A DNA stretch of 64,000 nt from Felixounavirus NRG857CP1, in the sequence record OZ035796.1; one strand, given 5' to 3'. Made by a program: the position numbers and the translations under genes. Numbering within the stretch: the stretch's first letter is position 1; every line of letters begins with the position of its first letter. The notes under the pieces were generated by a model. The model did not search any database, was not told the DNA's origin, and saw nothing but the letters and a program-made list of their open reading frames with translations. This document shows, piece after piece, positions 2,507-58,767 of the stretch.

Positions 2507-2585
2507 TCCCTTGTTGACTGATTGTTAAGATGGTGTTAATATTCTTTATGGGTATTCTCACCATCTTGGCTGATGAGGTGATTAA

Positions 2586-2780
2586 ATGCCTACAATCCTA
2601 GCAATTCTTCTAAAAAATCTAGGTAGCTTCTTCTGGAAACTCATTTTATCCCTTCTAAGTGAATACATGATTGAGAAAGTGTTCTTTAAGCTTGCAAGAT
2701 ACCTTGCGAGTAAAACAGACACACCTATTGATGATGAGTTCGTAGATAACTTAGAAAAAGCTTTTAAGGGGGAGAAATAA
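2586..2780 (+). CDS. small hydrophobic membrane protein
   Basis: 64 aa, hydrophobic N-terminal half; GAGGTGA Shine-Dalgarno; directly downstream of tail fiber. Confidence 0.55.
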   Translation: MPTILAILLKNLGSFFWKLILSLLSEYMIEKVFFKLARYLASKTDTPIDDEFVDNLEKAFKGEK

Positions 2781-3152
2781 ATGAAGTGGCTAGAGGAAGC
2801 TTTTAAAAATAATATTGGTGTAATTGTAGTTGGTATTTTTAGTGTTATTGGGATGTATACCACGATGCAAGTTTCAAGTGGTAAACAAGAAGTGTCTGTC
2901 ACAACAAAGTTACAGCAGCTAGATAATTATTCCAAAAGTAACTATTCAGCTATTCGTGATTTACAGTCTGACATGAGACTGATTCAGCTAGGGATGGAGA
3001 ACCAGAAAGTTCAGTTAGAGAATGTTAAGGGTGAAAACGCAAAACTTACCAAAACTCTTGATAAATTCTCTGACAGTGTGAATAATCTGGCTCAATCAGT
3101 ATCAGCCCTCCAAGCTATTACTGAGAAGAACACAAAGAATACTGAGAAATAA
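2781..3152 (+). CDS. membrane-anchored coiled-coil protein
   Basis: 123 aa; N-terminal TM segment (IGVIVVGIFSVIGMY) then heptad-like Q/L/N-rich region; GGGGGAG Shine-Dalgarno. Confidence 0.55.
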   Translation: MKWLEEAFKNNIGVIVVGIFSVIGMYTTMQVSSGKQEVSVTTKLQQLDNYSKSNYSAIRDLQSDMRLIQLGMENQKVQLENVKGENAKLTKTLDKFSDSVNNLAQSVSALQAITEKNTKNTEK

Positions 3153-3160
3153 AATTTTAA

Positions 3161-3190
3161 GGCTCCTTTTGACGGGAGCCTTTTTTGTTT
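3161..3190. terminator. bidirectional rho-independent terminator candidate
   Basis: GGCTCC...GGGAGCC hairpin followed by TTTTTTGTTTTT; lies between convergent genes. Confidence 0.6.
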
Positions 3191-4090
3191 TTACTTACCT
3201 ACTGACAAAGGTGCTTCAATCTTTCCTGCATGTTTGTAGTTGTTGATGCCACCAATAAAGTCACTTGCAGTAAGATGTTTTAAGTCACTTAAGGTGTTAA
3301 GTTGTACACCAATCTCAAAAGTAGGTGCATGGAACTCTTCATTGTTCATCAGTTCATAAACCTGCTTCATATGGTTCTGGTAAATCTGAGTGTCTCCAAA
3401 GACACCTATCAAGTATCGTGGAGTGTATCCAGTCATCTTACAAAGAACTTCTAAGATGAAGCCATAAGACGCAATATTAAACGGAAGTCCTAAAAATGTG
3501 TCTACAGAACGCTGATACCATTGCAAATCTACTTCACCTTCGTTGGTGATATAAATCTGAAACAGAACATGACAAGGTGCTAAAGCCATCGAGTTTGCTG
3601 CAATATCTGCTGCATTCCAAGCATTAACAAGCATGTAGCGGTCTGTGATATCACCTTTCATCTTTGTTACTAAGGTCTCTAACTGGTCTACAACACAACC
3701 ATTATGACCTTCAAAGTTTCTCCACTGAACCCCGTAGATTCTCCCACCTGCATCTTCTAACCAATCTTGTTCAGAAGAATAATTAGAGCTTAACCAGCGT
3801 TTAAAATCATCTGACCAGATAGTCCAACGCTCCCCATCATTTTCACCCCAAGTACGATAACGGAGTTCACCAAGTTTATTCTCACCATTCAGGAACCATA
3901 AAGCTTCCCCAATAACTTGCCGTGTAAACACCTGTTTAGATGTTAAGAGTGGAAAACCAGTACGCATATCAAAACGAAACTGTGGTGGAGCAAATGCAGA
4001 GATAACATCTCCAGTTCGTGTAGTACGCAGTTCACCAACGGATAAAACATGGTTCAGGATATTTTTGTAACTTGAATCTGCTTGTGACAT
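3191..4090 (-). CDS. thyA: thymidylate synthase
   Basis: 299 aa; ThyA-like sequence throughout, including the LAPCHVLFQ active-site Cys motif. Confidence 0.9.
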   Translation of the reverse strand: MSQADSSYKNILNHVLSVGELRTTRTGDVISAFAPPQFRFDMRTGFPLLTSKQVFTRQVIGEALWFLNGENKLGELRYRTWGENDGERWTIWSDDFKRWLSSNYSSEQDWLEDAGGRIYGVQWRNFEGHNGCVVDQLETLVTKMKGDITDRYMLVNAWNAADIAANSMALAPCHVLFQIYITNEGEVDLQWYQRSVDTFLGLPFNIASYGFILEVLCKMTGYTPRYLIGVFGDTQIYQNHMKQVYELMNNEEFHAPTFEIGVQLNTLSDLKHLTASDFIGGINNYKHAGKIEAPLSVGK

Positions 4091-4091
4091 A

Positions 4092-4637
4092 TCAAAAGTG
4101 TCCTTTTACTTGTGGAACATAAATTTCAAAAGTTGCTTTACCATCCTCTGATGGTTTTGACTGTACCTTTGTAAATACACGGTTATCATACAGCTTCTCA
4201 AAGAAGTTTTCAAAAGGTAAATGTACAGTGACCTCTTCAGTAACTTTATGGAAAACAGTATGGAACACTACATCAGCATATGGTAAAGCATTGACAAGGA
4301 CACCTGCACCACCAATTACAAAGACATCTTCATCAATAGAGCTATCAAGATACTTCAAAAATGCTCCAAATGACTCTTTACTGGCTTTAGCATACATTAC
4401 ATCATCTTTGCCAAAGTCTATGCCTAAGTATGGTACAGAATTTGTTAAGACGAGGTTTGCACGTTCTGGTAATGGTTTACTGCCCAGAGTCTTAAAAGTC
4501 TCGTTACCCATGACTACTAAGTTATTTTTAGTGAGTCTCTTAAACTCTTGCATATCCTGTTTATGTCGAGGCCACGGCATACCAGTTGGAGTACCAAACT
4601 CCCCATTTTCACCACTTGCAAAGATTAATTTAATCAT
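4092..4637 (-). CDS. folA: dihydrofolate reductase
   Basis: 181 aa; N-terminal MIKLIFA...GMPWP DHFR signature; adjacent to thyA as in T4 td/frd. Confidence 0.85.
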   Translation of the reverse strand: MIKLIFASGENGEFGTPTGMPWPRHKQDMQEFKRLTKNNLVVMGNETFKTLGSKPLPERANLVLTNSVPYLGIDFGKDDVMYAKASKESFGAFLKYLDSSIDEDVFVIGGAGVLVNALPYADVVFHTVFHKVTEEVTVHLPFENFFEKLYDNRVFTKVQSKPSEDGKATFEIYVPQVKGHF

Positions 4638-4894
4638 TTTGTAAATCCTTTCTTAATGAACCAGTTGATAACATTCTTCACAGCTTTATTGCTATGGTAG
4701 ATTAAGTGTGGTGTAGGTTGGTATGAACCATAAGCCCAGAAAGCAATGATTTCATTACATCCTGTACACCTTGTACTCTCTTCAGCAATATGACCGTTGA
4801 CTATTTCACTTACCTCACCTTGTAAGTCTGTACACCCACAATGTGGACATCGGATAGGTGTTCCATCAGACTCATAGCAGTGTTCAATTTTCAT
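4634..4894 (-). CDS. small Cys-rich zinc-ribbon protein
   Basis: 86 aa; CPHCGC...CTGC pattern; overlaps the DHFR start by 4 nt. Confidence 0.5.
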   Translation of the reverse strand: MKIEHCYESDGTPIRCPHCGCTDLQGEVSEIVNGHIAEESTRCTGCNEIIAFWAYGSYQPTPHLIYHSNKAVKNVINWFIKKGFTK

Positions 4895-5410
4895 TTATTT
4901 AACCTCAAAAACTGGCTCAAGAACCAATATAAAGTCTACACAGTCATCTTCTTCATCCAGAATACCATCAAAGTTCTTAGGAACGAAGTCGAAGAGGCTC
5001 ATAACAAAACAGTCAGAAGTGACCTTGATAGTTCCTCCCATGTTCTCTACAGTCAACACTGTACGACTTTCTTTTACCTCCCTCAGAAGATTACCCACAA
5101 AGTCATCTAAGAAGTACTTCATCAGTGACTTAAAACCTTTAGGGTAATCTGTACCAGAGTATGTTTCAATCTGAGGAACAAGCTTAACATTTATACTAGT
5201 CTTTGTTAAGAATGTATTAGAGAACATACTATCAGGTAACTTACAAACAGTCTTTCCAGTACCTTCATGTTCAATCTCAACAAAACCAGCTTCATCGCCA
5301 CATGTAACTATTTTAAAAGATGCTTCATTCTCATAATGTGAAGCCATAAACTTTTTAAGCATCTCTTTAAGGAAATCTGCATGAGCATCTTGTAAGTAGA
5401 TATCAATCAT
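4895..5410 (-). CDS. hypothetical protein
   Basis: 171-aa ORF tightly packed in the minus-strand operon. Confidence 0.5.
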   Translation of the reverse strand: MIDIYLQDAHADFLKEMLKKFMASHYENEASFKIVTCGDEAGFVEIEHEGTGKTVCKLPDSMFSNTFLTKTSINVKLVPQIETYSGTDYPKGFKSLMKYFLDDFVGNLLREVKESRTVLTVENMGGTIKVTSDCFVMSLFDFVPKNFDGILDEEDDCVDFILVLEPVFEVK

Positions 5411-5423
5411 AGTTAATCACCTA

Positions 5424-5783
5424 TTATGGGAACAGACACTTAATGTCGTCGTTTTTGAAAACAAAACTCGTGTAGTTATGACCGTCAACATCCAGCCAAA
5501 CAGCCTGAACATCTACACCATCAAGATTCTGGTAAAGCTCTTTGATGAAGTGGTCTTTCACAATCTGACTGCTAGTTGTTTCCAGCTTAATGTTCGAGAT
5601 TGCTGAACCTACAGCCATATAGCCCATGACACGTTTCTTCTCAGTATGCTTAATCTTACCATCTTTGTAAGCCATAATGAGATTGGAGAGAATCTTCACA
5701 CCATAATACTTTTCAAGGTGAGTGGGTACGCCATAAAAACCTAATGCGAAGTTTTCAGAGTGGATAATGTTTTCACGTTTCAT
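5424..5783 (-). CDS. hypothetical protein
   Basis: 119-aa ORF, co-oriented and tightly packed. Confidence 0.5.
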   Translation of the reverse strand: MKRENIIHSENFALGFYGVPTHLEKYYGVKILSNLIMAYKDGKIKHTEKKRVMGYMAVGSAISNIKLETTSSQIVKDHFIKELYQNLDGVDVQAVWLDVDGHNYTSFVFKNDDIKCLFP

Positions 5784-41846: not shown

Positions 41847-42173
41847 ATGCAGATTAATGGAAGAGACTTTGTAGCCGTTTACTATGAGAAAGGTAAAGAA
41901 GTTGGCGTAGCACAAGTATCTTATGGCAATGGTAAGTGGCTATATGGAACAATCGCAGTAGTAGGAACAAGAAGTGATACAAAAACCTTTAAAGATTGTG
42001 TTGACCTTCTTGAAGAATCCATCCAGAATCATTGGTGTCTGATATGGATGACTGATAACGAAGTGATGGAGCGTTTCAAAAAGATTGATATCAACATTGA
42101 CAGTATTGAGCATGTTGATTTATATGAACTAACTGAGAAGGTAAACTATGAAAGTAATACTAGCCAGAGATAA
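41847..42173 (+). CDS. hypothetical protein
   Basis: 108-aa ORF. Confidence 0.45.
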   Translation: MQINGRDFVAVYYEKGKEVGVAQVSYGNGKWLYGTIAVVGTRSDTKTFKDCVDLLEESIQNHWCLIWMTDNEVMERFKKIDINIDSIEHVDLYELTEKVNYESNTSQR

Positions 42174-42375
42174 AAAGACACGAAAACTTATAAGGTCAGC
42201 AGTATTCATTGGACGAAATGAGGTCATCCCATTTACAGCAAATGATGTGATAGCTTACAGGAAGAACTTAGTATTCACTGACTGCTTACGTGGCTTCATC
42301 TCTGAACCATTGGAAGACTTTAAAAGTCGTTGTGGTAAAGGTATCATCATTCAAGAGGCAATTATTCATGGCTGA
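42148..42375 (+). CDS. hypothetical protein
   Basis: 75-aa ORF. Confidence 0.4.
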   Translation: MKVILARDKKTRKLIRSAVFIGRNEVIPFTANDVIAYRKNLVFTDCLRGFISEPLEDFKSRCGKGIIIQEAIIHG

Positions 42376-42568
42376 CTTCTGTAAAGACTGTTCTATCGAA
42401 ATGTTCGGACGTGATACAGGTGACTTAAAAGGTCTTATCACTGAAGATGATTTTAAAGCTGGTTATGCAATGCCAGTAATCTGTGAAGGTTGTGGGTGCA
42501 TCTGGGTAGACCATGAGGGGCAACGTGTAAAACCTTCAGAAGATAAAGAATCTTGGGAGAGATGCTAA
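42368..42568 (+). CDS. small Cys-rich protein
   Basis: ORF 42290-42568 trimmed to the ATG at 42368; CKDC...CEGCGC. Confidence 0.4.
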   Translation: MADFCKDCSIEMFGRDTGDLKGLITEDDFKAGYAMPVICEGCGCIWVDHEGQRVKPSEDKESWERC

Positions 42569-43354
42569 ATGGGTATTGTAAAAATCATCAATGGTGATAT
42601 CTTTGCTGCATTTGATAAAGGTAAGTTTGACATCATTGGTCATGGTTGTAACTGCATGAACCTAATGGGCGCAGGTATCGCTGACAAGATTTCTAAACTT
42701 TACCCAAAAGCATATGAGACCGATACAGAAGTTTATCTCTATGCAGGTGGTATAGGTCACAAACCCTGTGAGAATTTACTAGGTAATTTCTCTGTAGCAC
42801 GCTTAAAACAAGGTCGTATAGCTAACCTTTACACTCAGCTTAAGACTGGTAAAGATGCCCGATACAGTGCTTTAGAGTCATCTTTGAAACAGCTTAACAG
42901 ATACTGTGAAGTCAATCAGTTGAAGAAAGTTGGTTTACCTATGATTGGTGTAGGTATCGGTGGACTTGACCCTCAAGCCGTCACAGTTATCATCAATCAG
43001 GTGATGAAGAGTGTAGATGTTTATCTATATGTCTATGAAGGAGAGATGTACCACAAGTTACTCTCAGGTTGGAAGAACTACTGTGAACCAGAATACTTTG
43101 CAGGTGTAGCAGTGTTCACAGATAACGCAGTTACCCTCTTCAGACGAAGAAAAGGTAAGATACATCAAAGTAACCCTCCGGTTGAAAAGATGTCTCTAAG
43201 TAACGCTCTAGTTACCCACCTGTCAAAGAGCAATCACAGAATTGCTGTAACATTTGGTAGTGATGCAGAAGCTTATATCTATGCAAGAACTGATGAGGAT
43301 ATTGAGGCAATCTTCTCTTCACCAGAAGTTACCTTCTTAGACGCAAAGAACTAA
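42569..43354 (+). CDS. macro-domain protein (ADP-ribose binding/hydrolase family)
   Basis: N-terminal IINGDIF...FDIIGHGCNCMNLMGAGIADKI resembles the macro-domain VQGDIT...NAAN...GGGGV-GAIH region as recalled; 261 aa with extra C-terminal region. Confidence 0.55.
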   Translation: MGIVKIINGDIFAAFDKGKFDIIGHGCNCMNLMGAGIADKISKLYPKAYETDTEVYLYAGGIGHKPCENLLGNFSVARLKQGRIANLYTQLKTGKDARYSALESSLKQLNRYCEVNQLKKVGLPMIGVGIGGLDPQAVTVIINQVMKSVDVYLYVYEGEMYHKLLSGWKNYCEPEYFAGVAVFTDNAVTLFRRRKGKIHQSNPPVEKMSLSNALVTHLSKSNHRIAVTFGSDAEAYIYARTDEDIEAIFSSPEVTFLDAKN

Positions 43355-43422
43355 GAAACTCTGTAGGATATCCACAATAGCCTAAGCCTTTCTTATCTGG
43401 TAAATTTTTCAGGTAAGGAGGG

Positions 43423-43610
43423 CTTTTTCATTTCAGATTTGTGCAGGTAGATTTCTCTACAGAACTCTATAGAGAAAATTTTGAACTCCAAAGAGAAAAT
43501 TCATTTTCAAACTGTGCAGGTAATCTCCAAAGAGCTTTTTCATTTTCAAAACGTGCAGACCCCGCTCAGGTCGGGCAAGAAAAATCATTTTAGAATTGTG
43601 CAGGTAGGTT
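43423..43610. repeat. four direct repeats (~28 nt, core TCATTTTCA-A-TGTGCAGGTA)
   Basis: Copies near 43428, 43501, 43550 and 43586 with irregular spacing (73, 49, 36 nt); non-coding. Confidence 0.6.
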
Positions 43611-43626
43611 TTTATAGACAGCCAGC

Positions 43627-43661
43627 CCAACCCCTCTCCCCCTCTTACTCCCCCTCTCCCC
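43627..43661. repeat. C/T-rich homopyrimidine tract
   Basis: CCCAACCCCTCTCCCCCTCTTACTCCCCCTCTCCCC; exceptional in this AT-rich sequence. Confidence 0.6.
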
Positions 43662-43782
43662 AAAAGTCAAGAGAAAAATTTGTAGCGGATTGAAAAATAA
43701 TTCTTGATTTGCGTTCTGTTTTGTGGTAGTCGTGCGCACCCGTTTCATTACAGTTTTGCCAAAAATATTTTTAAAATTTTTA

Positions 43783-43811
43783 TTGACTCTTTGAACGTGG
43801 TTATCTAATAT
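43783..43811 (+). promoter_or_regulatory. sigma70-like promoter of the small-gene array
   Basis: TTGACT - 17 nt - TAATAT, followed by the conserved GGGGAGGG-AATGACC-(T)TCCCC leader hairpin and AGGAGA Shine-Dalgarno. Confidence 0.55.
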
Positions 43812-43874
43812 TTACATCAACGGGGAGGGAATGACCTTTCCCACTAAATAAAATCCTAAACTGGAGATTCAAAA

Positions 43875-44063
43875 ATGGCATCAAGAAAAATTAAAGTTGG
43901 CGATGAGGTTAACATTAAGCACGAATACTCTTACAAAATGCTAACTATACGCTCTTATAAGGTTTATCAGGTGGAAGCTATCCACAAAGATAATACTTTT
44001 TCCTTAAAAGGGTATAGCGAACGTTTCCCTGCTGAACTCTTTGAGAAATGGAGCGCGAAATAA
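43875..44063 (+). CDS. small hypothetical protein (array gene 1)
   Basis: 62 aa; conserved leader TAAACTGGAGATTCAAAAATG. Confidence 0.5.
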   Translation: MASRKIKVGDEVNIKHEYSYKMLTIRSYKVYQVEAIHKDNTFSLKGYSERFPAELFEKWSAK

Positions 44064-44269
44064 TGCTTTACAGTCGTGAATTGATGGTTACAACTAACGT
44101 TAACACAAAGGTAAAACGTTTTTACATGCAAATTTGTGGCGTATGGTCTAGAATATCAGAAGCTGACTATTGCAACTATGTAGAAACAGCTATAAACTCT
44201 AATTGCTACCTTACAAGAAATACTAAGAATTTTACAAGGCAAACAGCGATTTACTATTACGATAAATAA
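44063..44269 (+). CDS. small hypothetical protein (array gene 2)
   Basis: TAATG overlap with upstream stop (translational coupling); 68 aa. Confidence 0.45.
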   Translation: MLYSRELMVTTNVNTKVKRFYMQICGVWSRISEADYCNYVETAINSNCYLTRNTKNFTRQTAIYYYDK

Positions 44270-44276
44270 AAAGTAC

Positions 44277-44312
44277 TTTACATGGGGCTTATAGTTCGAT
44301 AAAGTAAGCCCC
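44277..44312 (+). promoter_or_regulatory. promoter/hairpin module type B
   Basis: TTTACA - 17 nt - TAAAGT with GGGGCTTA...TAAGCCCC inverted repeat across the spacer; diverged copies near 44754 and 45360. Confidence 0.45.
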
Positions 44313-44359
44313 AGATAAAGAGCTTTACCAAATTAACCCTTAAACTAGGAGATTCAAAA

Positions 44360-44740
44360 ATGGCATATCGTGCACCTAAATTCATCAACAAAGACAACTT
44401 TCGCAACGCACTGGAGAAGTCACTTGATGAAAATTTTAAAGGCAACATTATCGTTGTTCACGCATTCAATTTTAAGTATGATGTAAACGGGAATAGAATC
44501 AACCATTACACGGCAACCATGTTAGATGGCACACTATCAAGTGAAAAAGCTGTACTGAATGCACTTGCTGGACGTGGTAAAAACCTGATAAAATGCGATA
44601 AGAGACGTTATCAGGGTGGCGCATATGGTTATGATGATGCTATTTATCATCTTGAAAATATGGGCTATCAAGTAGAAAAAGCTGGAGCATCACAAATCAT
44701 CGGCAGTGACGGCTATGTGACAATTTTCAAAATTAACTGA
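44360..44740 (+). CDS. hypothetical protein (array gene 3)
   Basis: 126 aa; conserved leader CTTAAACTAGGAGATTCAAAAATG. Confidence 0.5.
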   Translation: MAYRAPKFINKDNFRNALEKSLDENFKGNIIVVHAFNFKYDVNGNRINHYTATMLDGTLSSEKAVLNALAGRGKNLIKCDKRRYQGGAYGYDDAIYHLENMGYQVEKAGASQIIGSDGYVTIFKIN

Positions 44741-44835
44741 TAAAGTACTTTACAAGGGGCTTAAAAGTTGGTATCTTAAGCCCCAGATAAAGAGCTTTAC
44801 CACTAAATCAAGTCCTTAAACTAGGAGATTCAAAA

Positions 44836-45348
44836 ATGAAAACTGTAGACGCTACCTTTGAAGTTGTAAAAGAAAAATTTTCCATCATTTACGAAGCTGT
44901 TAATTGCTACGAAGCAAGCCATAACCTTGATAATTGGGAATTTACAGATGACCATCAAGGCGGTGTGACTGTTAAAAATCCTAACTATCAGCATAATGCA
45001 TTTAAATATGCAATCCCTTTGCATTACAGCCTTAAACAGCTTTCTAGTGACTATGCAAAACAAGGCCGGGAAAATCCATCAAAAGAGGCTTACGCAAGCT
45101 TACAGAAAGAACTAGAAAGAGATTTAGAGGCTTCAGAGTACAACCTTGCCGCGAAAGTTGTGGATGCAAACGGTAACACGGTTTTAGAAAGTTTTTATCT
45201 TGGTTATGCTTTCGATTGGTGCTATCGTGACGGCGATGATTTAGAGGATAGACTAAAAGAAGAGGTGAACAATTCAGACGCAGAATCTGAAGTATTAGAA
45301 CGTTTGGAATCACTAAAAGATTCAGTGATGAATATCTTTAAGAACTAA
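44836..45348 (+). CDS. hypothetical acidic protein (array gene 4)
   Basis: 170 aa; same conserved leader. Confidence 0.5.
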   Translation: MKTVDATFEVVKEKFSIIYEAVNCYEASHNLDNWEFTDDHQGGVTVKNPNYQHNAFKYAIPLHYSLKQLSSDYAKQGRENPSKEAYASLQKELERDLEASEYNLAAKVVDANGNTVLESFYLGYAFDWCYRDGDDLEDRLKEEVNNSDAESEVLERLESLKDSVMNIFKN

Positions 45349-45440
45349 ATAGATTTCTTTACACGGGGTTATCAAGCTGGTAGGATAGCCCCAGATAAAG
45401 AGATTTATCAAATAAAGTCCTTAAACTAGGAGATTCTAAA

Positions 45441-45737
45441 ATGAAATTATCAAATCAAGTGCGTGAAAATCTAAGCAAATTACTCAACAAAATTGATTTC
45501 ATTGAAACATCAAGGAATAGTCATGATGTTATGGAATGGTTACACGGCAAAATAAAAGGCCGTCGTGTAGTGATTTGCTTATGGAACAGTTGCAGGGAGT
45601 ATAAAAAACCTGTATTGCAAGTTAATATCTATGATGATACTTTTAAAAGTCCTGTAAAGTCTGAAAGTGATTTACTAGATTCTTATGAGATAACTGTAAA
45701 TGGCAAAGTGTCACGTAAAGAGGAAGCACTATGTTAA
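45441..45737 (+). CDS. hypothetical protein (array gene 5)
   Basis: 98 aa; same conserved leader (variant GATTCTAAAATG). Confidence 0.5.
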   Translation: MKLSNQVRENLSKLLNKIDFIETSRNSHDVMEWLHGKIKGRRVVICLWNSCREYKKPVLQVNIYDDTFKSPVKSESDLLDSYEITVNGKVSRKEEALC

Positions 45738-46063
45738 TGATGGGTATCACTGCAATCATTGCTATTATGGCGCTATATAAGGCGTACAGCGCCTACAATC
45801 TGGCAAGTAAGGCAATCACGCAACAGGTCAATAATAGCCTTGTAATGAGTTTTCTGGAGCGTTTAAGTGATGAACAAATAAAACGGTTAGAAATGAGCTT
45901 CAGATTTCAATCAAAAACTTATCAAATCAGCGACATTTTCAAAGATAATTTTCAGCTTGTCGATGATTATAACTCTCTGATAAATGCTTTAAATATCAGC
46001 GACTTAAAAGACTATTACACTATAATTGTCCAAGAACTGAACAAACGAAAAAATTTCTCTTGA
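45731..46063 (+). CDS. small membrane protein (array gene 6)
   Basis: 110 aa, N-terminal TM helix; start overlaps upstream stop. Confidence 0.45.
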   Translation: MLMMGITAIIAIMALYKAYSAYNLASKAITQQVNNSLVMSFLERLSDEQIKRLEMSFRFQSKTYQISDIFKDNFQLVDDYNSLINALNISDLKDYYTIIVQELNKRKNFS

Positions 46064-46088
46064 TTTTAGTTTTAAAAACAAGTAAATT
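46060..46088 (+). promoter_or_regulatory. sigma70-like promoter candidate
   Basis: TTGATT - 17 nt - TAAATT followed by the GGGGAGGG-AATGA-CCTTCCCC leader hairpin. Confidence 0.5.
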
Positions 46089-46152
46089 ACTAATCAACGG
46101 GGAGGGAATGACCTTCCCCACTAAGTAAAATCCTTAAACTAGGAGAGTCAAA

Positions 46153-46683
46153 ATGAACAAGTTTAAAGCTATCAACTTCATTCGTTCAAATGCTGTAATG
46201 TCTAAGCCTGTAAAAGATACATATGAATTTCGTTGTAATGGGGTACACTTTGCAACCATCACTAAGTCAGAAAACGGGGCTTATTATGTACATCGTCGTA
46301 ATGTTGCAACCGTTGTAGTCTCTCACTTTATGCAAGCTGTAGCGGAATTATTACCGTTATTCTTAGAGATTTACTTAGATGAGTGTAAAAACGTTCACAA
46401 CCACGTTAAAAACCTTTTAAACGGTTATAAAATGGCTTATGAACGTTCTATCAAGTCACTAAACAAGTTTTACAATGCACCTGCAAATACTGTTTCAATG
46501 GCTTATGATGTAAACGGTGAGTTAGTTAGTCTCTTTAAAGTGGAAGAAATTAAACTGTATAATCTACGTCCTAGTGGTTACTCTAAGACTCTTGGTGAAG
46601 GTTTAACGTTCAATATCAAGAACTTAGAAAAAACTTTAAAAGATATTGAAAAAGATATTGACGAGACACTTAAAAGTCTGTAA
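46153..46683 (+). CDS. hypothetical protein (array gene 7)
   Basis: 176 aa; leader AGGAGAGTCAAAATG. Confidence 0.5.
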   Translation: MNKFKAINFIRSNAVMSKPVKDTYEFRCNGVHFATITKSENGAYYVHRRNVATVVVSHFMQAVAELLPLFLEIYLDECKNVHNHVKNLLNGYKMAYERSIKSLNKFYNAPANTVSMAYDVNGELVSLFKVEEIKLYNLRPSGYSKTLGEGLTFNIKNLEKTLKDIEKDIDETLKSL

Positions 46684-46686
46684 ATT
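46658..46686 (+). promoter_or_regulatory. sigma70-like promoter candidate
   Basis: TTGACG - 17 nt - TAAATT then the conserved leader hairpin; -10 overlaps the upstream stop codon. Confidence 0.5.
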
Positions 46687-46751
46687 GTCAATCAACGGGG
46701 AGGGAATGACCTTCCCCACTAAATAAAACCCTTAAACTAGGAGATTCAAAA

Positions 46752-47000
46752 ATGGCAACTATCCGCGCTACTGTTAACGAGTTCGGTTTTTCTTCTCTGG
46801 ATGTTAAATTTGACATTGCAGGCACTGATAACGCCTTTGAAATGGTGAAATGTCTTATCAGTCAGACCATCAAAGATTATAATCCTTCGGATGAGTTCTG
46901 GGAGGAAACAAAACAAGAAGTTCTCAAGGATGGTTATACTTATCACTATTGGGGAGAAAAAATCGTCTCCCTGTACTACAACAAACAAGATTATAACTAA
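46752..47000 (+). CDS. small hypothetical protein (array gene 8)
   Basis: 82 aa; conserved leader. Confidence 0.5.
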   Translation: MATIRATVNEFGFSSLDVKFDIAGTDNAFEMVKCLISQTIKDYNPSDEFWEETKQEVLKDGYTYHYWGEKIVSLYYNKQDYN

Positions 47001-47038
47001 TCGACGCAGCGGGGCTATTTAGCCCCAGATACCTGAAC

Positions 47039-47062
47039 AGCCCCTTAAAATGGGGCTTTTTT
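47039..47062 (+). terminator. rho-independent terminator
   Basis: AGCCCC-ttaaaat-GGGGCT followed by TTTTTT; an additional GGGGCT-attt-AGCCCC hairpin lies just upstream. Confidence 0.65.
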
Positions 47063-48706
47063 ACGTCTATGTAATAGCCTCTATTCAATCCTTTTCCTTT
47101 CCTTTCCAGAATCTATCCCACTGATTCAATAGAATCTTATCAGACCTTAAAAGCAATAACTCTATAGTCTACTCTATAACCTCTTATCAAATCAACTTAA
47201 ATAAAAGCCAATAACCCCAGAAAGGGGATGGCCCATTTAAACGCTCTATAAAGCTCTATAACAGCCTTATCAACCTAACTTAAGGGATTGCATTAACTCA
47301 CCCTTAAAAACCCTTTATAAAGCTTCTCAGAGCCTTAAAAGAATCTTATAAGGGTGTAAGCTTTATCATCTCATTAGTATTCTTGTGAATAACTAAACAA
47401 CCCCTTGATAGTCACTAAAAAGTATGTTATAGGGGGCTTTAAAGTTACTTTGAAGTAGCTTAAAAGTTACGTAAAAGAGGTTATAAAGTTACGTAAATGC
47501 TAGCCCCCTTAACATTTTCTTAACAATTTCTTAACAACCCCCTACATAGTTATGCTTGTTAGAGACTTGTTAGCCCCTTGTTAAATCTCTGTTAAGACCA
47601 CGTAAAAGCCTTGTAAGAACCTTTGACATAGCCTTAAAAGCTCCTGTAAAGCCCTATAAAGAGCTATCCATACAGTTGAGGGGTAGATACTAGGAAGAGA
47701 TTTAAAAGAGCTTACAAGGAGCTATAGAGAGCTTTTAAAGGGTATGTTTAGAGAATCACTAAGAAAGAGAGGGAACGATAAGAAAAGAGTAGTGACCATG
47801 TTAATAGCTTGTTAAAAAGATTAAACACTTGTTAAAAACTTGTTAATTATCTTAACAAAATAACTCTTAAAAATTAACTTGTTAGCTCTTGTTAGTCATC
47901 TGTTAAGATTCTGTAAAGCCCATGTATCAACTGTTAAGAAACTGTTAAGCCCTTGTTAGCTCTGTTAAGAATCTGTTAAGACCTTTGAAGAGTTGTTAAG
48001 AAGATGTTAGAACTGTTGAGAGATTGTTAATGATATTTTAAAATTTTGCAAAGTACTTGTAAGGGAGCTGTTAAGGGCTACCAAGCAGATATACATCTTC
48101 TACAGATATTTTTGAGTTCCTTCAAAGACCCTAAAAAAATGACTTGATATTCCTATTTTATAAAAATTTTAAAATTCTGAATAATTACCTATACAGTCTT
48201 TTAAAAATACAGGCATAAACAGGCTTATAAGATACCTTGTTAGTACCGTGTTAGACCTTGTGAGATAAGGTCTGTAAAGATATTCCTGTTAAGTTTGTTA
48301 AAACAGTCTATATAGAGGCTTAGTAATACCTAGTGAACACCTATAGAGGGTAACATAGCTGACATAATGGGTTACTGTTAAGTAACACAGATAACCTAGA
48401 GATTAAGAGGTGTATAGGGGGCTTCTAAGAGGGTATAGAGAGATGGTTAAGGTGATTGTATAGGCTGTTAAGAAGGCTTGTTAGAAGAGTGTTTAGAAGG
48501 GCTATACAGAGGGGCTATTAAGACCACTAGATAGTTACTAAGATACTATATAGTACTATATAACTATATATAGAGAGTAAGCTTAAGAAGGTTGTTAAGA
48601 AGGGTAGATATTTTATTCACATATGATGGTGACCCAGAGGTTGGGACAACCGATGAAATTTTATAAAAATTAAAAAGCCCCCAATTAAGGAGGCTCTTAA
48701 GATATT
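47063..48706. repeat. ORF-free ~1.6-kb island dense in short iterated motifs
   Basis: No ORF of 60 aa or more on either strand; dozens of (C)TTGTTAG / CTGTTAAG / GTTAAGA and CCTTAAAAG / CTATAAAGAGCT copies; lies between convergent transcription units. Confidence 0.7.
48675..48700 (-). terminator. rho-independent terminator candidate (minus strand)
   Basis: On the minus strand AGCCTCC-ttaatt-GGGGGCT followed by TTTTT, just downstream of the last minus-strand gene. Confidence 0.5.
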
Positions 48707-49255
48707 TTAAATCAGTGTTTCCAGAACTGTCTTCAGTGATGACTTGGTTGTCTGATAAAAATGAGTAAATCCATTGTTGTTATCGAATACCTGCATCATG
48801 ATATCATCTCCCTTGATTGGGTACACTCGGATATCATAGTGGAATCCATTAAAGATAGCAGAGCCATTACAGAATGAACTAAAGTCATCAACTGAGATGT
48901 ACTCTTCGTGACCTGTGATTTTTATACAGACACCTTTACTCGGTCTCTTAGGGTTGATATCTTCCATGATAGACATGCTCTGTCCACCAAGAGATACCAT
49001 AGTGACCACTTTACGGTTCTTCTGTTTAAAGTACATCTTAACTTTCTGTAAAGTGTCTTCATAGAACGGATAAGACCTTTCTACAAAGATTCCTTCAAGT
49101 GGCTCTTTACCATTTTCAACTTCTCTGTTATGCCGTACTGCAAAGATAATTTGTTGGAACCAGTCAAGATTTTCTTCGGAGAGTGCTTCCCGAATATCAT
49201 TCCAGTCAAGGACTAGGTAGTTGCCTTCAACATCTTTTAAGTTATCTTTTTCCAT
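48707..49255 (-). CDS. hypothetical protein
   Basis: ORF 48707-49312; start tentatively moved to an internal ATG to remove the 44-nt overlap. Confidence 0.45.
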   Translation of the reverse strand: MEKDNLKDVEGNYLVLDWNDIREALSEENLDWFQQIIFAVRHNREVENGKEPLEGIFVERSYPFYEDTLQKVKMYFKQKNRKVVTMVSLGGQSMSIMEDINPKRPSKGVCIKITGHEEYISVDDFSSFCNGSAIFNGFHYDIRVYPIKGDDIMMQVFDNNNGFTHFYQTTKSSLKTVLETLI

Positions 49256-49268
49256 ATCTATCACACCA

Positions 49269-49733
49269 TTATCGTAAAACTTGGTAGTCTGGTACTGCAA
49301 ACTTGTTGTCATTGTTTTTAATGAGGTCTTCTTCTGTTACTAAGAATGTAAGACCACACAAGTGTGTATAGCGGCTATCATACTCAAATATTTTAAGTAA
49401 GTATTTACCATCATGATAGACAGATTCTACTACACCTTTTGCAACAATCTTTCCGGTCTTGAAGTCTTTAAGACGGTATACATTACCAACTTTAGGGACT
49501 GTTTTCACTTCAGGTTCTTTTAGCTTCTCACCAACTTCTACATCACCTAGTAAGTGAGAACTTTCAAACGCTACATATTGCATATAAGCTTCTGAGCATT
49601 CCCAGATAAAACAATGTACAAGAACCTTAGCAGCATGTCTTGAACAGCTCAACTTATCACAAATCTCTTTGTACATCTCATCTTTAGTTGAGTTGTCAAG
49701 CATTGCTTTTTGGACTACTTCTTTAATTTTCAT
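49269..49733 (-). CDS. hypothetical protein
   Basis: 154-aa ORF. Confidence 0.5.
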   Translation of the reverse strand: MKIKEVVQKAMLDNSTKDEMYKEICDKLSCSRHAAKVLVHCFIWECSEAYMQYVAFESSHLLGDVEVGEKLKEPEVKTVPKVGNVYRLKDFKTGKIVAKGVVESVYHDGKYLLKIFEYDSRYTHLCGLTFLVTEEDLIKNNDNKFAVPDYQVLR

Positions 49734-57952: not shown

Positions 57953-58029
57953 CTCTGTTTAGCTCAGCTTGGTAGAGCGTTCCGTTTGGGGCGGTAAGGC
58001 CGGAGGTTCAAGTCCTCCAACAGAGACCA
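57953..58029 (+). tRNA. tRNA-Pro (anticodon TGG)
   Basis: Hand-folded cloverleaf: 7-bp acceptor CTCTGTT/AACAGAG, D-arm GCTC/GAGC, anticodon loop TTTGGGG, T-arm GGAGG-TTCAAGT-CCTCC, encoded CCA. Confidence 0.7.
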
Positions 58030-58036
58030 AATTAAT

Positions 58037-58114
58037 GTTCCAGTAGACAAAACGGTAAAGTCACCACTCTTTCAAAGTGGATATTTGAGGGTTCAAATCC
58101 CTTCTGGAACGCCA
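58037..58114 (+). tRNA. tRNA-Glu (anticodon TTC)
   Basis: Acceptor GTTCCAG/CTGGAAC, anticodon stem CCACT/AGTGG with loop CTTTCAA, T-loop TTCAAAT, CCA. Confidence 0.7.
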
Positions 58115-58121
58115 GTTTTGA

Positions 58122-58194
58122 CAGAAGACCAATTACAGCAAACTTAATCTTATTCATCTGAAGCTAAATCGGACAAAGAAGAGATTTGGTCTGG
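58122..58194 (+). ncRNA. conserved stem element A1 (CAGAAGACCA...TGGTCTGG)
   Basis: 20-nt conserved 5' box CAGAAGACCAATTACAGCAA and downstream complementary TGGTCTGG; member of a 4-copy family with covarying stem bases. Confidence 0.4.
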
Positions 58195-58206
58195 TCATTA
58201 AGAATT

Positions 58207-58281
58207 GCGGGTATAGAGAAAGGGCGTCTCACATGTCTCATTAGCATGGTATCGGCAGGTTCGACTCCTGCACCCGCCTCC
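58207..58281 (+). tRNA. tRNA with CAT anticodon (Met or Ile2)
   Basis: Anticodon stem CATGT/GCATG with loop CTCATTA; T-arm GCAGG-TTCGACT-CCTGC; acceptor GCGGGT/ACCCGC. Confidence 0.6.
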
Positions 58282-58288
58282 AATTTTG

Positions 58289-58348
58289 CAGAAGACCGTA
58301 TGCAGCAATAAACTACTTTTTGCGGATAAAAGAAAAAACACGGTCTGG
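58289..58348 (+). ncRNA. conserved stem element A2 (CAGAAGACCG...CGGTCTGG)
   Basis: Same 5' box with A-to-G change matched by T-to-C in the 3' partner (covariation). Confidence 0.4.
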
Positions 58349-58359
58349 CAATGTATTAA

Positions 58360-58436
58360 GGTTAGGAAGCACATAAGGTATGTGCGGTCGCCTGTTAAGC
58401 GAATGGCACAGGGTTCGAATCCCTGACTAACCGCCA
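58360..58436 (+). tRNA. tRNA-Asn (anticodon GTT)
   Basis: Acceptor GGTTAGG/ACTAACC, D-stem GCAC/GTGC, anticodon loop CTGTTAA, T-arm CAGGG-TTCGAAT-CCCTG, CCA. Confidence 0.65.
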
Positions 58437-58445
58437 AATTTAAAT

Positions 58446-58533
58446 GTGTCGTTATCCCGTAGATGGTAGCGGTGGGGACTGTAAATCCCTTGTCATTGAG
58501 ACTCGGTAGGTTCGACTCCTACACGGCACACCA
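58446..58533 (+). tRNA. tRNA-Tyr (anticodon GTA), long variable arm
   Basis: 88 nt; acceptor GTGTCGT/ACGGCAC; anticodon stem GGGGA/TCCCT with loop CTGTAAA; long variable arm; T-loop TTCGACT; CCA. Confidence 0.7.
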
Positions 58534-58539
58534 AATAAA

Positions 58540-58616
58540 GGTTATGTAGTTTAACTGGATAAAATACTCCCCTGTCACGGGAGATGATGTGAGTTCAAGT
58601 CTCATCGTAACCGCCA
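58540..58616 (+). tRNA. tRNA-Asp (anticodon GTC)
   Basis: Acceptor GGTTATG/CGTAACC; anticodon stem CTCCC/GGGAG with loop CTGTCAC; T-loop TTCAAGT; CCA. Confidence 0.7.
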
Positions 58617-58677
58617 ATTTTGAGAGGGCTATTTAGCTCCTCCCTTAAAGAGTTCTTACGAGTATTCTTTAAAGGAG

Positions 58678-58754
58678 CAGAAGACCAATTACAGCAAGTA
58701 CGTATGATATTTTCAAGCCAATTTAATTTTGAAAAAATTTAAAACTTGGTCTGG
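58678..58754 (+). ncRNA. conserved stem element A3 (CAGAAGACCA...TGGTCTGG)
   Basis: Third copy of the conserved box with matching 3' partner. Confidence 0.4.
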
Positions 58755-58767
58755 CTCAACAAATTTA

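What the first reader, a model, noticed from the sequence alone, without database searches (positions are those of the whole stretch)
43783..47062. Array of eight small genes, each behind a near-identical promoter/hairpin/RBS leader
The leader CCTTAAACTAGGAGATTCAAAAATG recurs before the genes at 43875, 44360, 44836, 45441, 46153 and 46752. It is preceded by one of two hairpin types: type A GGGGAGGG-AATGACC-TTCCCC (43822, 46099, ~46700) with a TTGAC-N17-TAAATT/TAATAT promoter, or type B GGGGCTTA...TAAGCCCC (44284, ~44760, ~45370) embedded in TTTACA-N17-TAAAGT. This looks like a cassette system in which unrelated small ORFs are plugged into a shared expression module. Early-gene arrays like this commonly encode host-takeover or anti-defense proteins. 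The products have no recognisable domains by eye.
Basis: seen in the sequence. Interest (0 to 1): 0.7.

Follow-up and report, generated by a model that had tools for sequence, protein, structure and literature searches.

The report
Repeated promoter–hairpin modules shuffle phage genes
A Felix O1-like phage carries a row of small genes of unknown function. Most have their own copy of a repeated promoter–hairpin–ribosome-site module. Recombination between these copies adds and removes genes, as already described for "PeSL" elements of T4-like phages.

Summary
The window is a Felixounavirus (99.7% to NRG857CP1). Between 43783 and 47062 lie eight small + strand genes served by six repeated modules, not eight; two genes are translationally coupled.

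There are two module types.
- Type A: -35, 17 nt, TAAATT-like -10, 10 nt, a G-rich 8-bp hairpin, then the leader.
- Type B: TTTACA, 17 nt, TAnnnT, buried inside a ~20-bp interrupted hairpin, then the same leader.

In 18 related arrays the gene order is collinear, but cassettes come and go or are replaced. Each change spans one ORF plus one module. The window lacks a 2,655-bp, six-gene block present in its nearest relative, and the crossover lies in a 55-bp identical stretch of two type-A modules.

Hexamers and spacings are conserved across 80 type-B and 87 type-A copies. Stems show compensatory changes and sense-strand G·U pairs. No internal hairpin is followed by a T-run.

All eight proteins are of unknown function, and two confident or partly confident models gave no informative fold match.

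The architecture and behaviour match PeSLs of T4-like phages. The Felix O1 paper and the wV8 record list these repeats without interpreting them. I rate it a new member of a known kind, of moderate interest. Promoter, hairpin and anti-defence roles remain inferred.

The parts
43384..43425 (+). Canonical intrinsic terminator (stem plus T-run) after the macro-domain gene; upstream boundary of the array region
   Evidence: equals terminator t13 of Felix O1 (PMC3185647)
43783..43877 (+). Type A module 1: -35 TTGACT 43783-88, 17 nt, -10 TAATAT 43806-11, 10 nt, hairpin 43822-43842, leader allele 2 CCTAAACTGGAG.. 43855-43877
43875..44063 (+). Gene 1, 62 aa, basic, phrog_15633 (unknown function)
44063..44269 (+). 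Gene 2, 68 aa, start in TAATG overlap with gene 1 (no module of its own), phrog_5293
44270..44362 (+). Type B module 1: -35 TTTACA 44277-82, -10 TAAAGT 44300-05, interrupted hairpin 44270-44326 (core 44284-44312), leader 44338-44362
   Evidence: MFE -24.2, z -5.9
44360..44740 (+). Gene 3, 126 aa, phrog_4495
44742..44838 (+). Type B module 2: -35 44749-54, TG-extended -10 TATCTT 44772-77, hairpin core 44756-44784, leader 44814-44838
44836..45348 (+). Gene 4, 170 aa, acidic (pI 4.6), phrog_4190. Homologues also in Vequintavirinae and Casjensviridae phages. Confident model without a PDB fold match
45349..45443 (+). Type B module 3 (variant stem GGGGTTATC/GATAGCCCC): -35 45358-63, TG-extended -10 TAGGAT 45381-86, leader 45419-45443
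   Evidence: MFE -25.1, z -7.0
45441..45737 (+). Gene 5, 98 aa, phrog_4401
45731..46063 (+). Gene 6, 110 aa, hydrophobic N-terminus, overlaps the end of gene 5 (no module), phrog_4375
46060..46155 (+). Type A module 2, a recombinant. -35 TTGATT 46060-65 overlaps the stop codon of gene 6; -10 TAAATT 46083-88; hairpin 46099-46119; leader 46131-46155. The left part equals the module before f4 of NRG857CP1 and the right part equals the module before f9. Crossover lies within 46075-46129
46153..46683 (+). Gene 7, 176 aa, phrog_4725; homologues carry PF26821.1; model has an N-terminal beta domain plus a long helical hairpin
46658..46754 (+). Type A module 3: -35 TTGACG 46658-63 (inside the end of gene 7), -10 TAAATT 46681-86, hairpin 46697-46717, leader 46730-46754
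46752..47000 (+). Gene 8, 82 aa, acidic (pI 4.5), phrog_4559
47011..47063 (+). End of the array: promoter-less remnant of a type B hairpin (GGGGCTATTTAGCCCC+AGATA, 47011-47031), then a canonical terminator 47039-47057 with T-run
   Evidence: (D9)

Best explanation
This is an array of self-contained early-expression cassettes in a Felix O1-like phage. It is built on the same principle as the PeSL (promoter-early stem-loop) elements of T4-like phages.

Each repeated ~90-bp module supplies three things: a host sigma-70-type promoter, a G-run/C-run stem-loop, and a standard Shine-Dalgarno leader.

In type A the hairpin starts exactly 10 nt after the -10. It would therefore sit about 3-4 nt from the 5' end of the module's own transcript. 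I infer that it stabilises that 5' end, and that it acts as a 3' hairpin on RNA arriving from upstream.

In type B the promoter lies inside a ~20-bp interrupted hairpin. That hairpin can form only in RNA read through from upstream. I infer that it is a non-canonical attenuator, a processing site, or a 3'-end stabiliser that insulates neighbouring cassettes.

Because the modules are near-identical direct repeats, homologous recombination between them deletes, inserts or replaces units of one ORF plus one module without breaking expression of the neighbours. This makes the region a hyperplastic store of small accessory genes.

Shown here: the repeats, conservation of hexamers and spacings, hairpin conservation with compensatory changes, cassette polymorphism, and a module-to-module deletion in this very genome. 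Inferred: promoter activity, start sites, what the hairpins do, and what the proteins do.
For: Identity of the phage: Felixounavirus.

Repeats are far beyond chance and confined to the array.

Type A, 87 distinct copies from 18 arrays:
- the -10 is always TAnnnT (TAAATT in 56);
- a -35 (TTGCAA, TTGACA, TTGACT, TTGACG, TAGACA or TTGATT) lies at exactly 17 nt in 86 of 87, while spacer sequences differ;
- the hairpin starts 10 nt after the -10 in 83 of 87, and 11 nt in 4.

Type B, 80 distinct copies:
- TTTACA is invariant;
- TAnnnT (one copy TAAAGC) lies at 17 nt in 73 copies, and the other 7 read as TAnnnT at 18 nt;
- the three middle bases vary;
- TG precedes the -10 in 38 of 80.

Hairpins:
- RNA MFE is -22 to -25 kcal/mol (z -3.8 to -7.0) for type B and -15 to -19 for type A.
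- On the 18-pair type B structure, 97.6% of cells are paired against 27-60% in slid registers, with a G-C to U-A swap at one pair in 10 sequences.
- Erwinia phage Pistou has GGTG/CACC in place of GGGG/CCCC.
- Type A stems differ among relatives: GGGGAGGG/CCTTCCCC, GGGGC/GCCCC, GGGA/TCCC.
- G·U pairs occur only on the sense strand: 31 of 80 type B copies and the standard type A stem. This points to an RNA-level structure.

Cassette behaviour:
- In 18 arrays the length is 5.4-9.3 kb, the order is the same, and presence varies, always leaving a single module of 65-110 nt at the junction.
- Unrelated ORFs occupy the same slot: f12 versus f24; f18, f23, f26 or f28.
- The same gene is found behind type A or type B (f2, f6, f8) and behind either leader allele.
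- The window lacks 2,655 bp (f4-f5-f13-f6-f7-f8) relative to NRG857CP1. The flanks are 99.95-100% identical and the crossover lies inside a 55-bp identical block of two type A modules.
- LF82P9 has the same f1-f9 junction in a different cassette background.

Published RT-PCR shows the homologous Felix O1 genes are transcribed: 13, 16, 20, 21 and 22 are maximal at 5 min (PMC3185647).

The PeSL definition and demonstrated properties are in PMC2839356 and PMC4122927.
Against: No transcription start, termination or cleavage data exist for these modules. Promoter and hairpin functions rest on sequence conservation alone.

One of the six promoters (46060) scores only 8 of 12 against consensus, and TAAATT is a weak -10.

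Most stem positions never vary, so covariation support is thin. There are two pairs with double changes in the 80-sequence set, and related sequences inflate the shuffle statistics.

Conservation of the type B arms could partly reflect promoter constraints (the -35 lies in the 5' arm) or a DNA-binding protein.

Gene order is never permuted. Simple loss from a long ancestral array, plus ordinary homologous exchange between co-infecting relatives, explains the pattern without any special 'mobility' of the modules.

Felix O1 RT-PCR places genes 14, 17, 19 and 23 at 25 min, not early.
Confidence: 0.68

Rival explanations
1. The internal hairpins are mainly transcription terminators or attenuators, which is the role originally proposed and reporter-tested for PeSL stem-loops. 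On this view each cassette is a closed transcription unit, and the 5'-stabiliser idea for type A is wrong.
For: A PeSL stem-loop reduced downstream lacZ expression in vivo (PMC2839356). The annotators of ASO1A and wV8 marked several of these hairpins as rho-independent terminators. The hairpins are G+C-rich and stable.
Against: None of the six hairpins in the window, and none of the 87 type A or 80 type B copies examined, is followed by a T-run. The tails are ACTAAATA and AGATAAAG. The array boundaries, by contrast, use canonical stem-plus-T-run terminators (43384-43425 and 47039-47057). A type A hairpin placed after its own promoter would terminate its own transcript.
Confidence: 0.3
2. The long type B hairpin is an RNase III processing site like those between the early genes of phage T7. 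Read-through RNA would be cut into monocistronic mRNAs that keep a protective 3' stem.
For: The type B helix has about 20 pairs in three segments separated by small internal loops. From my own knowledge, this is the size and irregular shape of T7 R sites. It lies between early-type genes. Sense-strand G·U pairs indicate an RNA structure. It can form only in read-through RNA, because the module's own start would lie in or after the 3' arm.
Against: There is no cleavage evidence, and no Rfam family matches. The helix is at the lower size limit for RNase III. The arms are also constrained by the embedded promoter. Type A hairpins (8 bp) are too short for RNase III.
Confidence: 0.25
3. The inverted repeats are operators for a phage or host DNA-binding protein that switches the array promoters off or on together, for example early shut-off. 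The RNA structures would be incidental.
For: In type B the palindromic arms flank and overlap the -35 and -10. The sequence is conserved across genera well beyond what base pairing alone needs: CCCCAGATAAAGAGCTTTA is nearly invariant. Felix O1 has no known mechanism for temporal control (PMC3185647).
Against: G·U (G-T) positions are pairs only on the sense strand; 31 of 80 type B copies and the standard type A stem have them. Compensatory stem changes keep pairing rather than sequence. Type A stems differ widely in sequence among relatives while staying at a fixed distance from the -10.
Confidence: 0.1
4. The modules are targets of a dedicated structure- or site-specific recombination system, making an integron-like cassette platform. 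On this view they are not passive substrates of general homologous recombination.
For: Hairpin-forming repeats flank every cassette, and indels are exact ORF-plus-module units. The PeSL authors raised the possibility of a GGGG...CCCC-binding recombination factor (PMC2839356).
Against: Cassette order is identical in all 18 arrays, with no insertion at a preferred end. Cassettes carry their own promoters. The window's crossover lies in a 55-bp block of perfect identity, as expected for homologous recombination. Type A by type B exchanges occur in the shared leader, not in the hairpin (f6 and f8 behind either type). No recombinase was looked for or seen.
Confidence: 0.05

Closest known systems
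PeSLs (promoter-early stem-loops) of T4-like phages RB49/phi1, T4/PST and KVP40/nt-1 (Arbiol et al. 2010, PMC2839356; Comeau et al. 2014, PMC4122927)
   Same: The composite order is the same: upstream stop codon in an A/T-rich stretch, sigma-70-like -35/N17/-10, G-run...C-run stem-loop placed between the -35 and -10 or overlapping the -10 (type B here), then Shine-Dalgarno and ATG. The elements are about 100 bp and are repeated between small ORFan genes in a hyperplastic region. Indels and replacements between close relatives have crossovers between the -10 and the ATG.
   Different: The host lineage differs (Ounavirinae, not T4-like). The sequences are unrelated to any PeSL consensus quoted in those papers. 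Type A puts the hairpin at a fixed 10 nt downstream of the -10. Type B has an extended three-segment helix that pairs the -35 region with the transcribed region. The elements are confined to one array rather than spread over several regions (within the 64 kb seen). Promoter and terminator activity and mini-circles were shown for PeSLs and not here.
Morons of lambdoid phages (gene flanked by its own promoter and terminator; Hendrix and colleagues, from my own knowledge and as discussed in PMC2839356)
   Same: Autonomously expressed accessory genes are inserted between neighbours without disturbing them.
   Different: Morons are single, unrelated insertions with individual signals. They are thought to arise by illegitimate recombination and are not an array sharing one repeated module.
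RNase III processing hairpins between the early genes of phage T7 (my own knowledge)
   Same: Irregular ~20-bp hairpins lie between consecutive early genes on one strand and are not followed by U-tracts.
   Different: T7 sites contain no promoter. T7 early genes share three upstream promoters. Cleavage is demonstrated in T7 and untested here.
5'-terminal stabiliser stem-loops such as the ompA 5' UTR (Emory, Bouvet and Belasco 1992; my own knowledge)
   Same: A stable hairpin is predicted within a few nucleotides of the mRNA 5' end (type A).
   Different: The 5' end is predicted here, not mapped. The hairpin is part of a repeated module.
Integron gene cassettes (attC hairpins)
   Same: An array of small, unrelated ORFs is separated by imperfect hairpin-forming repeats. 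Cassette content varies between relatives.
   Different: Integron cassettes are promoterless. They are inserted by an integrase at attI, so their order reflects history. Here every cassette has a promoter, the order is fixed, and crossovers fit homologous recombination.

Membership tests
PeSL (promoter-early stem-loop) regulatory cassettes | Intergenic position between small genes of unknown function in a variable (hyperplastic) region | tested here: met
   Six modules lie between eight PHROG-unknown genes. The region length is 5.4-9.3 kb in 18 relatives.
PeSL (promoter-early stem-loop) regulatory cassettes | Sigma-70-like -35 and -10 with about 17-nt spacing and an A/T-rich upstream stretch | tested here: met
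   Met at sequence level only. A 17-nt spacing holds in 86 of 87 type A copies and 73 of 80 type B copies, with 18 nt in the remaining type B copies. The -10 hexamers are TAnnnT apart from one TAAAGC copy.
PeSL (promoter-early stem-loop) regulatory cassettes | Stable stem-loop, typically GGGG...CCCC, between the -35 and -10, overlapping the -10, or nearby | tested here: met
   In type B the stem spans the spacer and the -10. In type A the stem starts 10 nt after the -10.
PeSL (promoter-early stem-loop) regulatory cassettes | Shine-Dalgarno sequence and start codon of the downstream gene at the 3' end of the element | tested here: met
   The leader ...TAGGAGATTCAAAAATG is present at all six modules.
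PeSL (promoter-early stem-loop) regulatory cassettes | Indels and replacements between close relatives with crossovers inside the elements | tested here: met
   A 2,655-bp deletion relative to NRG857CP1 has its crossover in 46075-46129. Clean ORF-plus-module indels occur in 18 arrays.
PeSL (promoter-early stem-loop) regulatory cassettes | Demonstrated promoter and terminator/attenuator activity | not testable with these tools
   This needs reporter fusions or transcript mapping. The only available data are RT-PCR of the Felix O1 homologues (PMC3185647).
PeSL (promoter-early stem-loop) regulatory cassettes | Formation of excised mini-circles by recombination between neighbouring elements | not testable with these tools
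   This needs inverse PCR on infected cells or virions.
Rho-independent (intrinsic) terminators | G+C-rich stem-loop immediately followed by a run of T | tested here: not met
   The terminator scan finds only the two boundary terminators on the + strand (43384-43425, 47039-47057) and none of the six module hairpins. The tails after the hairpins are ACTAAATA or AGATAAAG in all relatives.
Integron gene cassettes | Promoterless cassettes expressed from a common upstream promoter | tested here: not met
   Each module carries conserved -35 and -10 hexamers.
Integron gene cassettes | Integrase gene and attI site next to the array; new cassettes enter at one end | not tested
   No recombinase search was made. 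Cassette order is identical in 18 arrays and variation occurs at internal positions.
T7-type RNase III processing sites | Irregular double-stranded RNA hairpin of about two helical turns between genes | tested here: inconclusive
   Type B folds into about 18-22 pairs with two internal loops. Type A has only 8 pairs.
T7-type RNase III processing sites | Cleavage by RNase III | not testable with these tools
   This needs a comparison of rnc mutant and wild-type hosts, or an in vitro cleavage assay.
Known RNA families (Rfam 15) | Match to a curated covariance model | tested here: not met
   Only two chance-level matches (E 0.39 and 0.92) in 43300-48800.

The most novel reading that the evidence does not exclude
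The modules may be more than passive homology patches. On this reading the promoter-inside-a-hairpin design of type B, conserved from Escherichia and Salmonella to Erwinia Ounavirinae, is a transcription-coupled switch or insulator. Read-through RNA would fold, be processed (for example by RNase III) and set the stoichiometry and timing of each cassette. Alternatively, the hairpins are recognised by a phage factor that actively promotes cassette exchange. Either version would make this a dedicated, integron-like accessory-gene platform in virulent phages.
Probability: 0.1. Interest if true: 0.75.

Novelty: new member of a known kind. Interest (0 to 1): 0.45.

Why it matters
It extends the PeSL principle beyond T4-like phages to the Felix O1 group. 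That principle holds that repeated promoter–stem-loop–RBS modules both express small accessory genes and recombine them. Analogous-looking arrays were also seen in a Seunavirus, which suggests a general way for large virulent enterobacterial phages to keep a fast-turnover gene store.

The conserved leader is a practical search handle. In only 18 arrays it delimits about 25 or more families of small, uncharacterised, dispensable genes. These are natural candidates for host-takeover or anti-defence screens.

The work also explains repeats that were listed without interpretation in the Felix O1 paper and the wV8 record. It may explain why several metagenomic contigs of these phages end a few hundred bases before the first array module. 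It warns that therapeutic Felixounavirus stocks can lose multi-gene blocks by simple repeat-mediated deletion.

Tried and rejected
- Rfam scan of 43300-48800 at E<=1: nothing credible.
- Pfam on all eight proteins: no family at or near threshold. PHROGs: all 'unknown function'.
- PDB sequence search for genes 3, 4 and 7: nothing.
- 'Each hairpin is an intrinsic terminator': rejected because no T-runs follow the hairpins.
- 'Array of recent tandem duplicates of one gene': rejected because the ORF families are unrelated to one another.
- 'Foreign island': not pursued. The G+C of the genes (0.32-0.38) is close to that of the window (0.39).
- Literature searches for PeSL-type elements, cassette dynamics or transcript maps in Felix O1-like phages found only lists of direct repeats and predicted promoters and terminators.
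- I could not locate the genome's physical ends (DTR) relative to the array.

Full report
**What the window is.** Megablast places the region in Felixounavirus, the Felix O1-like myoviruses of Escherichia and Salmonella. The nearest record is Felixounavirus NRG857CP1 at 99.7% identity, and 257 records match. The array lies at the 3' end of a long + strand gene block. It follows a macro-domain/'phosphatase' gene (42569-43354), a canonical terminator (43384-43425) and a ~430-bp non-coding spacer. It ends at another canonical terminator (47039-47057). Beyond that are 1.6 kb of non-coding DNA and a convergent - strand block. In Felix O1 numbering these are genes 14-23.

**Check of the observation.**
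- The 25-nt leader occurs four times with at most one mismatch, against zero expected by chance. Two indel variants sit at 43855 and 46131.
- Its 12-nt core is found nowhere else in the 64 kb.
- The type A hairpin occurs three times and the type B 3' arm plus tail three times.
The one at 46060 is weaker: TTGATT/TAAATT.
- So the features are real and at the stated coordinates.
- Correction 1: six modules serve eight genes. Genes 44063-44269 and 45731-46063 overlap the preceding stop codon and are presumably translationally coupled.

**Anatomy of type A.** From 18 related arrays I extracted 87 distinct type A-like copies.
- A -35 hexamer (TTGCAA, TTGACA, TTGACT, TTGACG, TAGACA or TTGATT) lies exactly 17 nt before the -10 in 86 of 87.
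- The -10 is always TAnnnT: TAAATT 56, TAAAGT 13, TAGTAT 8, TAATAT 7.
- Spacer sequences fall into several unrelated 'alleles'. Hexamers and spacing are therefore conserved while the spacer is not, which is the signature of a working promoter.
- The hairpin begins 10 nt after the -10 in 83 of 87 and 11 nt in the rest.
- E. coli RNA polymerase usually starts about 7 nt after the -10 (established knowledge). The hairpin would then sit 3-4 nt from the 5' end of the module's own mRNA. That is the geometry of 5'-terminal stabiliser stem-loops such as ompA (my own knowledge).
- Stems vary among relatives but remain G-run/C-run hairpins: GGGGAGGG/CCTTCCCC, GGGGAGG/CCTCCC, GGGGC/GCCCC, GGGA/TCCC, GGGC/GCCC. 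A minority of copies are degenerate half-sites.
- None is followed by a T-run.

**Anatomy of type B.** I aligned 80 distinct copies.
- TTTACA is invariant.
- TAnnnT (one copy TAAAGC) lies at 17 nt in 73 copies. The other 7 give frame-shifted hexamers that read as TAnnnT at 18 nt.
- T1 and A2 of the -10 are invariant and T6 is at least 90% conserved. The three middle bases vary freely (AAG, TCT, AGA, GTA, GGA, CCT...).
- TG precedes the -10 in 38 of 80.
- The T and A lie in the hairpin loop, where base pairing imposes no constraint. Their invariance argues for promoter function.
- Around the promoter the RNA folds into three stacked helices of about 18-22 pairs. AAAG pairs with CTTT. CTTTA, which includes part of the -35, pairs with TAAAG. 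GGGGCTTA pairs with TAAGCCCC.
- The MFE is -22 to -25 kcal/mol and z is -3.8 to -7.0.
- On the named 18-pair structure, 97.6% of cells pair, against 27-60% when the partner is slid by 1-3 columns. One pair switches G-C to U-A in 10 sequences.
- In the window's third copy the upper stem is GGGGTTATC/GATAGCCCC.
- In Erwinia phage Pistou (Kolesnikvirus, about 44% protein identity in the neighbouring gene) the module is still recognisable. Its stem is GGTG.../...CACC, changed on both sides.
- Most stem positions never vary, so covariation support is real but thin.
- A second argument for an RNA-level structure comes from wobble pairs. 31 of 80 type B copies have U·G where others have C-G, and the standard type A stem contains a G·U. 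These are pairs only on the sense strand.
- The type B start would fall in or after the 3' arm. The full hairpin can therefore exist only in RNA read through from upstream.

**Comparative test of the cassette idea.** I took 18 arrays bounded by the macro gene and the convergent 201-aa gene. They comprise 16 IMG/VR loci, NRG857CP1 and the window. I clustered their + strand ORFs.
- Array length runs from 5,356 bp (the window, the shortest) to 9,321 bp.
- Order is collinear in every case: (f19/f27) f20 f14 f16 f2 f11 f12|f24 f3-f1 f21 f4 f5 f13 f17 f6-f7 (f18|f23|f26|f28) f8 (f22) f9 f15 f10.
- The following are present in some genomes and absent in others: f11, f12, f13, f14, f15, f16, f17, f18, f20, f21, f22, f23, f24, f26 and f28.
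- Wherever a cassette is missing, exactly one module (65-110 nt) remains.
- Unrelated ORFs occupy the same slot.
- The same gene can follow a type A or a type B module (f2, f6, f8).
- The two leader alleles, CCTTAAACTAGGAG and CCTAAACTGGAG, are distributed as a patchwork across genomes for the same gene. The distant clade uses only the second allele, and the Erwinia phage has its own uniform leader.
- That pattern means exchange within modules and homogenisation within genomes.
It fails on 'same ORFs' and holds on 'same order'.

**The window's own event.**
- Window 42079-46153 aligns to NRG857CP1 at 99.95%. Window 46048-49516 aligns 2,655 bp further on.
- The 106-bp overlap is the type A module.
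- The window's copy carries the promoter allele of the module before f4, and the leader of the module before f9. In between is a 55-bp stretch that is identical in both parental copies (46075-46129).
- Genes f9 and f10 are 100% identical between the two phages.
- This is a recent homologous deletion of six genes (f4, f5, f13, f6, f7, f8) between two modules.
- Crossovers in the same part of the element, between the -10 and the ATG, were sequenced in PeSL mini-circles (PMC2839356).
- A different lineage, LF82P9 (91.7% identical across the junction), has the same f1-f9 junction but keeps f11 and f15. The block is therefore dispensable, and the allele is either recurrent or exchanged.

**The proteins.**
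- All eight belong to PHROG families of unknown function (E 1e-35 to 1e-92), so they are real conserved genes. None has a Pfam family.
- Two are acidic (pI about 4.5-4.6) and one has a hydrophobic N-terminus.
- Gene 4 has homologues outside the subfamily, in Seunavirus and Redjacvirus phages.
- The gene 4 model is confident (pLDDT 89) but matches no solved fold convincingly.
- The gene 7 model (pLDDT 78) gives only generic helical-hairpin matches. Its homologues carry PF26821.1, a family absent from the local Pfam copy.
- The anti-defence or host-takeover suggestion can be neither supported nor rejected.

**How it most likely works.** Each module is an autonomous unit for host RNA polymerase and ribosomes early in infection.
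- Published RT-PCR shows that the Felix O1 homologues are transcribed. Genes 13, 16, 20, 21 and 22 peak at 5 min, and 14, 17, 19 and 23 at 25 min.
- I infer that the type A hairpin caps the 5' end of its own transcript and the 3' end of upstream RNA.
- I infer that the type B hairpin acts on read-through RNA as an attenuator, a processing site or a 3' stabiliser, insulating neighbours.
- The true terminators at both ends of the array have T-runs and the internal hairpins do not. This suggests the internal ones are not simple terminators.
- At the DNA level, the modules are direct repeats with identity blocks of at least about 50 bp. Ordinary homologous recombination, within a genome or between co-infecting relatives, then removes, adds or swaps ORF-plus-module units while every remaining gene keeps a complete expression signal.

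**Comparison with what is known.**
- The architecture matches the published definition of PeSLs almost point by point: stop codon in an A/T-rich stretch, sigma-70-like promoter, GGGG...CCCC stem-loop between or overlapping the hexamers, SD and ATG, about 100 bp, repeated between ORFans. The behaviour matches too.
- PeSLs have been described only in T4-like phages. None of the 15 papers in the library containing 'PeSLs' concerns Felix O1-like phages.
- The Felix O1 genome paper lists a 57-bp repeat (the type B module) and a 39-bp repeat (a type A promoter allele) without interpretation. It states that promoter usage and temporal control are unknown.
- The wV8 record annotates the same elements as DR_1 to DR_9.
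- The ASO1A record annotates some as 'promoter' immediately followed by 'terminator'.
- The type B module occurs about 1,900 times in 284 phage records, all listed hits being Ounavirinae.
- A Seunavirus array around a gene 4 homologue shows analogous promoter, hairpin and SD spacers with unrelated sequence.

**Verdict.** This is a real, non-random feature, and the cassette reading is supported in its essentials. It is best filed as a new member, in a new phage subfamily, of the known PeSL kind. It has two distinctive layouts: a hairpin at a fixed +3/+4 position, and a promoter buried in a long three-part hairpin. The functional roles of the hairpins and of the cassette proteins remain inferred.

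Noticed in passing
window 43428-43664: Four direct repeats TCATTTTCAnnnTGTGCAG(GT) lie at 43428, 43501, 43540 and 43585 and are found only here in the 64 kb. A C-rich tract follows at 43628-43664. Both sit in the ~430-bp non-coding spacer between the macro-gene terminator and the first array promoter. The spacer length is conserved in relatives. They could be regulator binding sites or iterons; the function is unknown.
   Followed up: partly
window 47060-48700: This is a 1.6-kb non-coding, A+T-rich (G+C 0.34) region between two convergent terminators. It holds 10 of the window's 14 CTGTTAAG motifs, plus many TTGTTA and GTTAAGA motifs, often spaced 11, 20 or 31 nt apart. That looks like an iteron or protein-binding array. 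It might be an origin, a packaging site, or the region of the ~600-bp terminal repeat reported for UAB_Phi87. The differences from NRG857CP1 cluster at 47538-47740.
   Followed up: partly
window 44337-44351, 44813-44827, 46129-46143; L034 leaders: The shared leader contains a small hairpin, UCCU-UAAACU-AGGA, that pairs the Shine-Dalgarno bases. The second leader allele, UCC-UAAACU-GGA, has lost one base on each side. Erwinia phage Pistou has CCUU-AUA-AAGG and CCUC-AAA-GAGG. The pairing is weak but seems to be maintained, so it may tune translation.
   Followed up: partly
window 47011-47031: GGGGCTATTTAGCCCC followed by AGATA looks like a promoter-less remnant of a type B hairpin. It lies between the last gene and the true terminator, and resembles the 'half PeSLs' described in T4-like phages.
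   Followed up: no
L038 (OZ035757.1, Felixounavirus LF82P9) 4582-5533: A phage only 91.7% identical across the junction has the same f1-to-f9 junction (the six-gene block is missing). It keeps cassettes f11 and f15, which the window lacks. The deletion is therefore either recurrent or spread by recombination.
   Followed up: partly
L035 (Salmonella phage SPLA5a, Seunavirus) 2300-4800: A homologue of gene 4 sits in an array of small genes separated by 69-102-nt spacers. Each spacer has a TTGAC-type -35, a TAnnnT -10, a G+C-rich hairpin and an AAAGGTAAA ribosome site. The design is the same and the sequence is unrelated.
   Followed up: no
L004, L005, L008, L026 (IMG/VR contigs): Several metagenome-assembled contigs of these phages end 300-415 bp after the macro gene, a few hundred bases before the first array module. 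The repeated modules may be breaking the assemblies.
   Followed up: no
window 46153-46683: Homologues of gene 7 carry a precomputed Pfam hit, PF26821.1, which is not in the local Pfam library. Its name and description could not be checked.
   Followed up: no
window 57953-63585: There is a cluster of 25 tRNA genes on the + strand, as expected for Felix O1-like phages (22-23 reported for Felix O1 and wV8).
   Followed up: no
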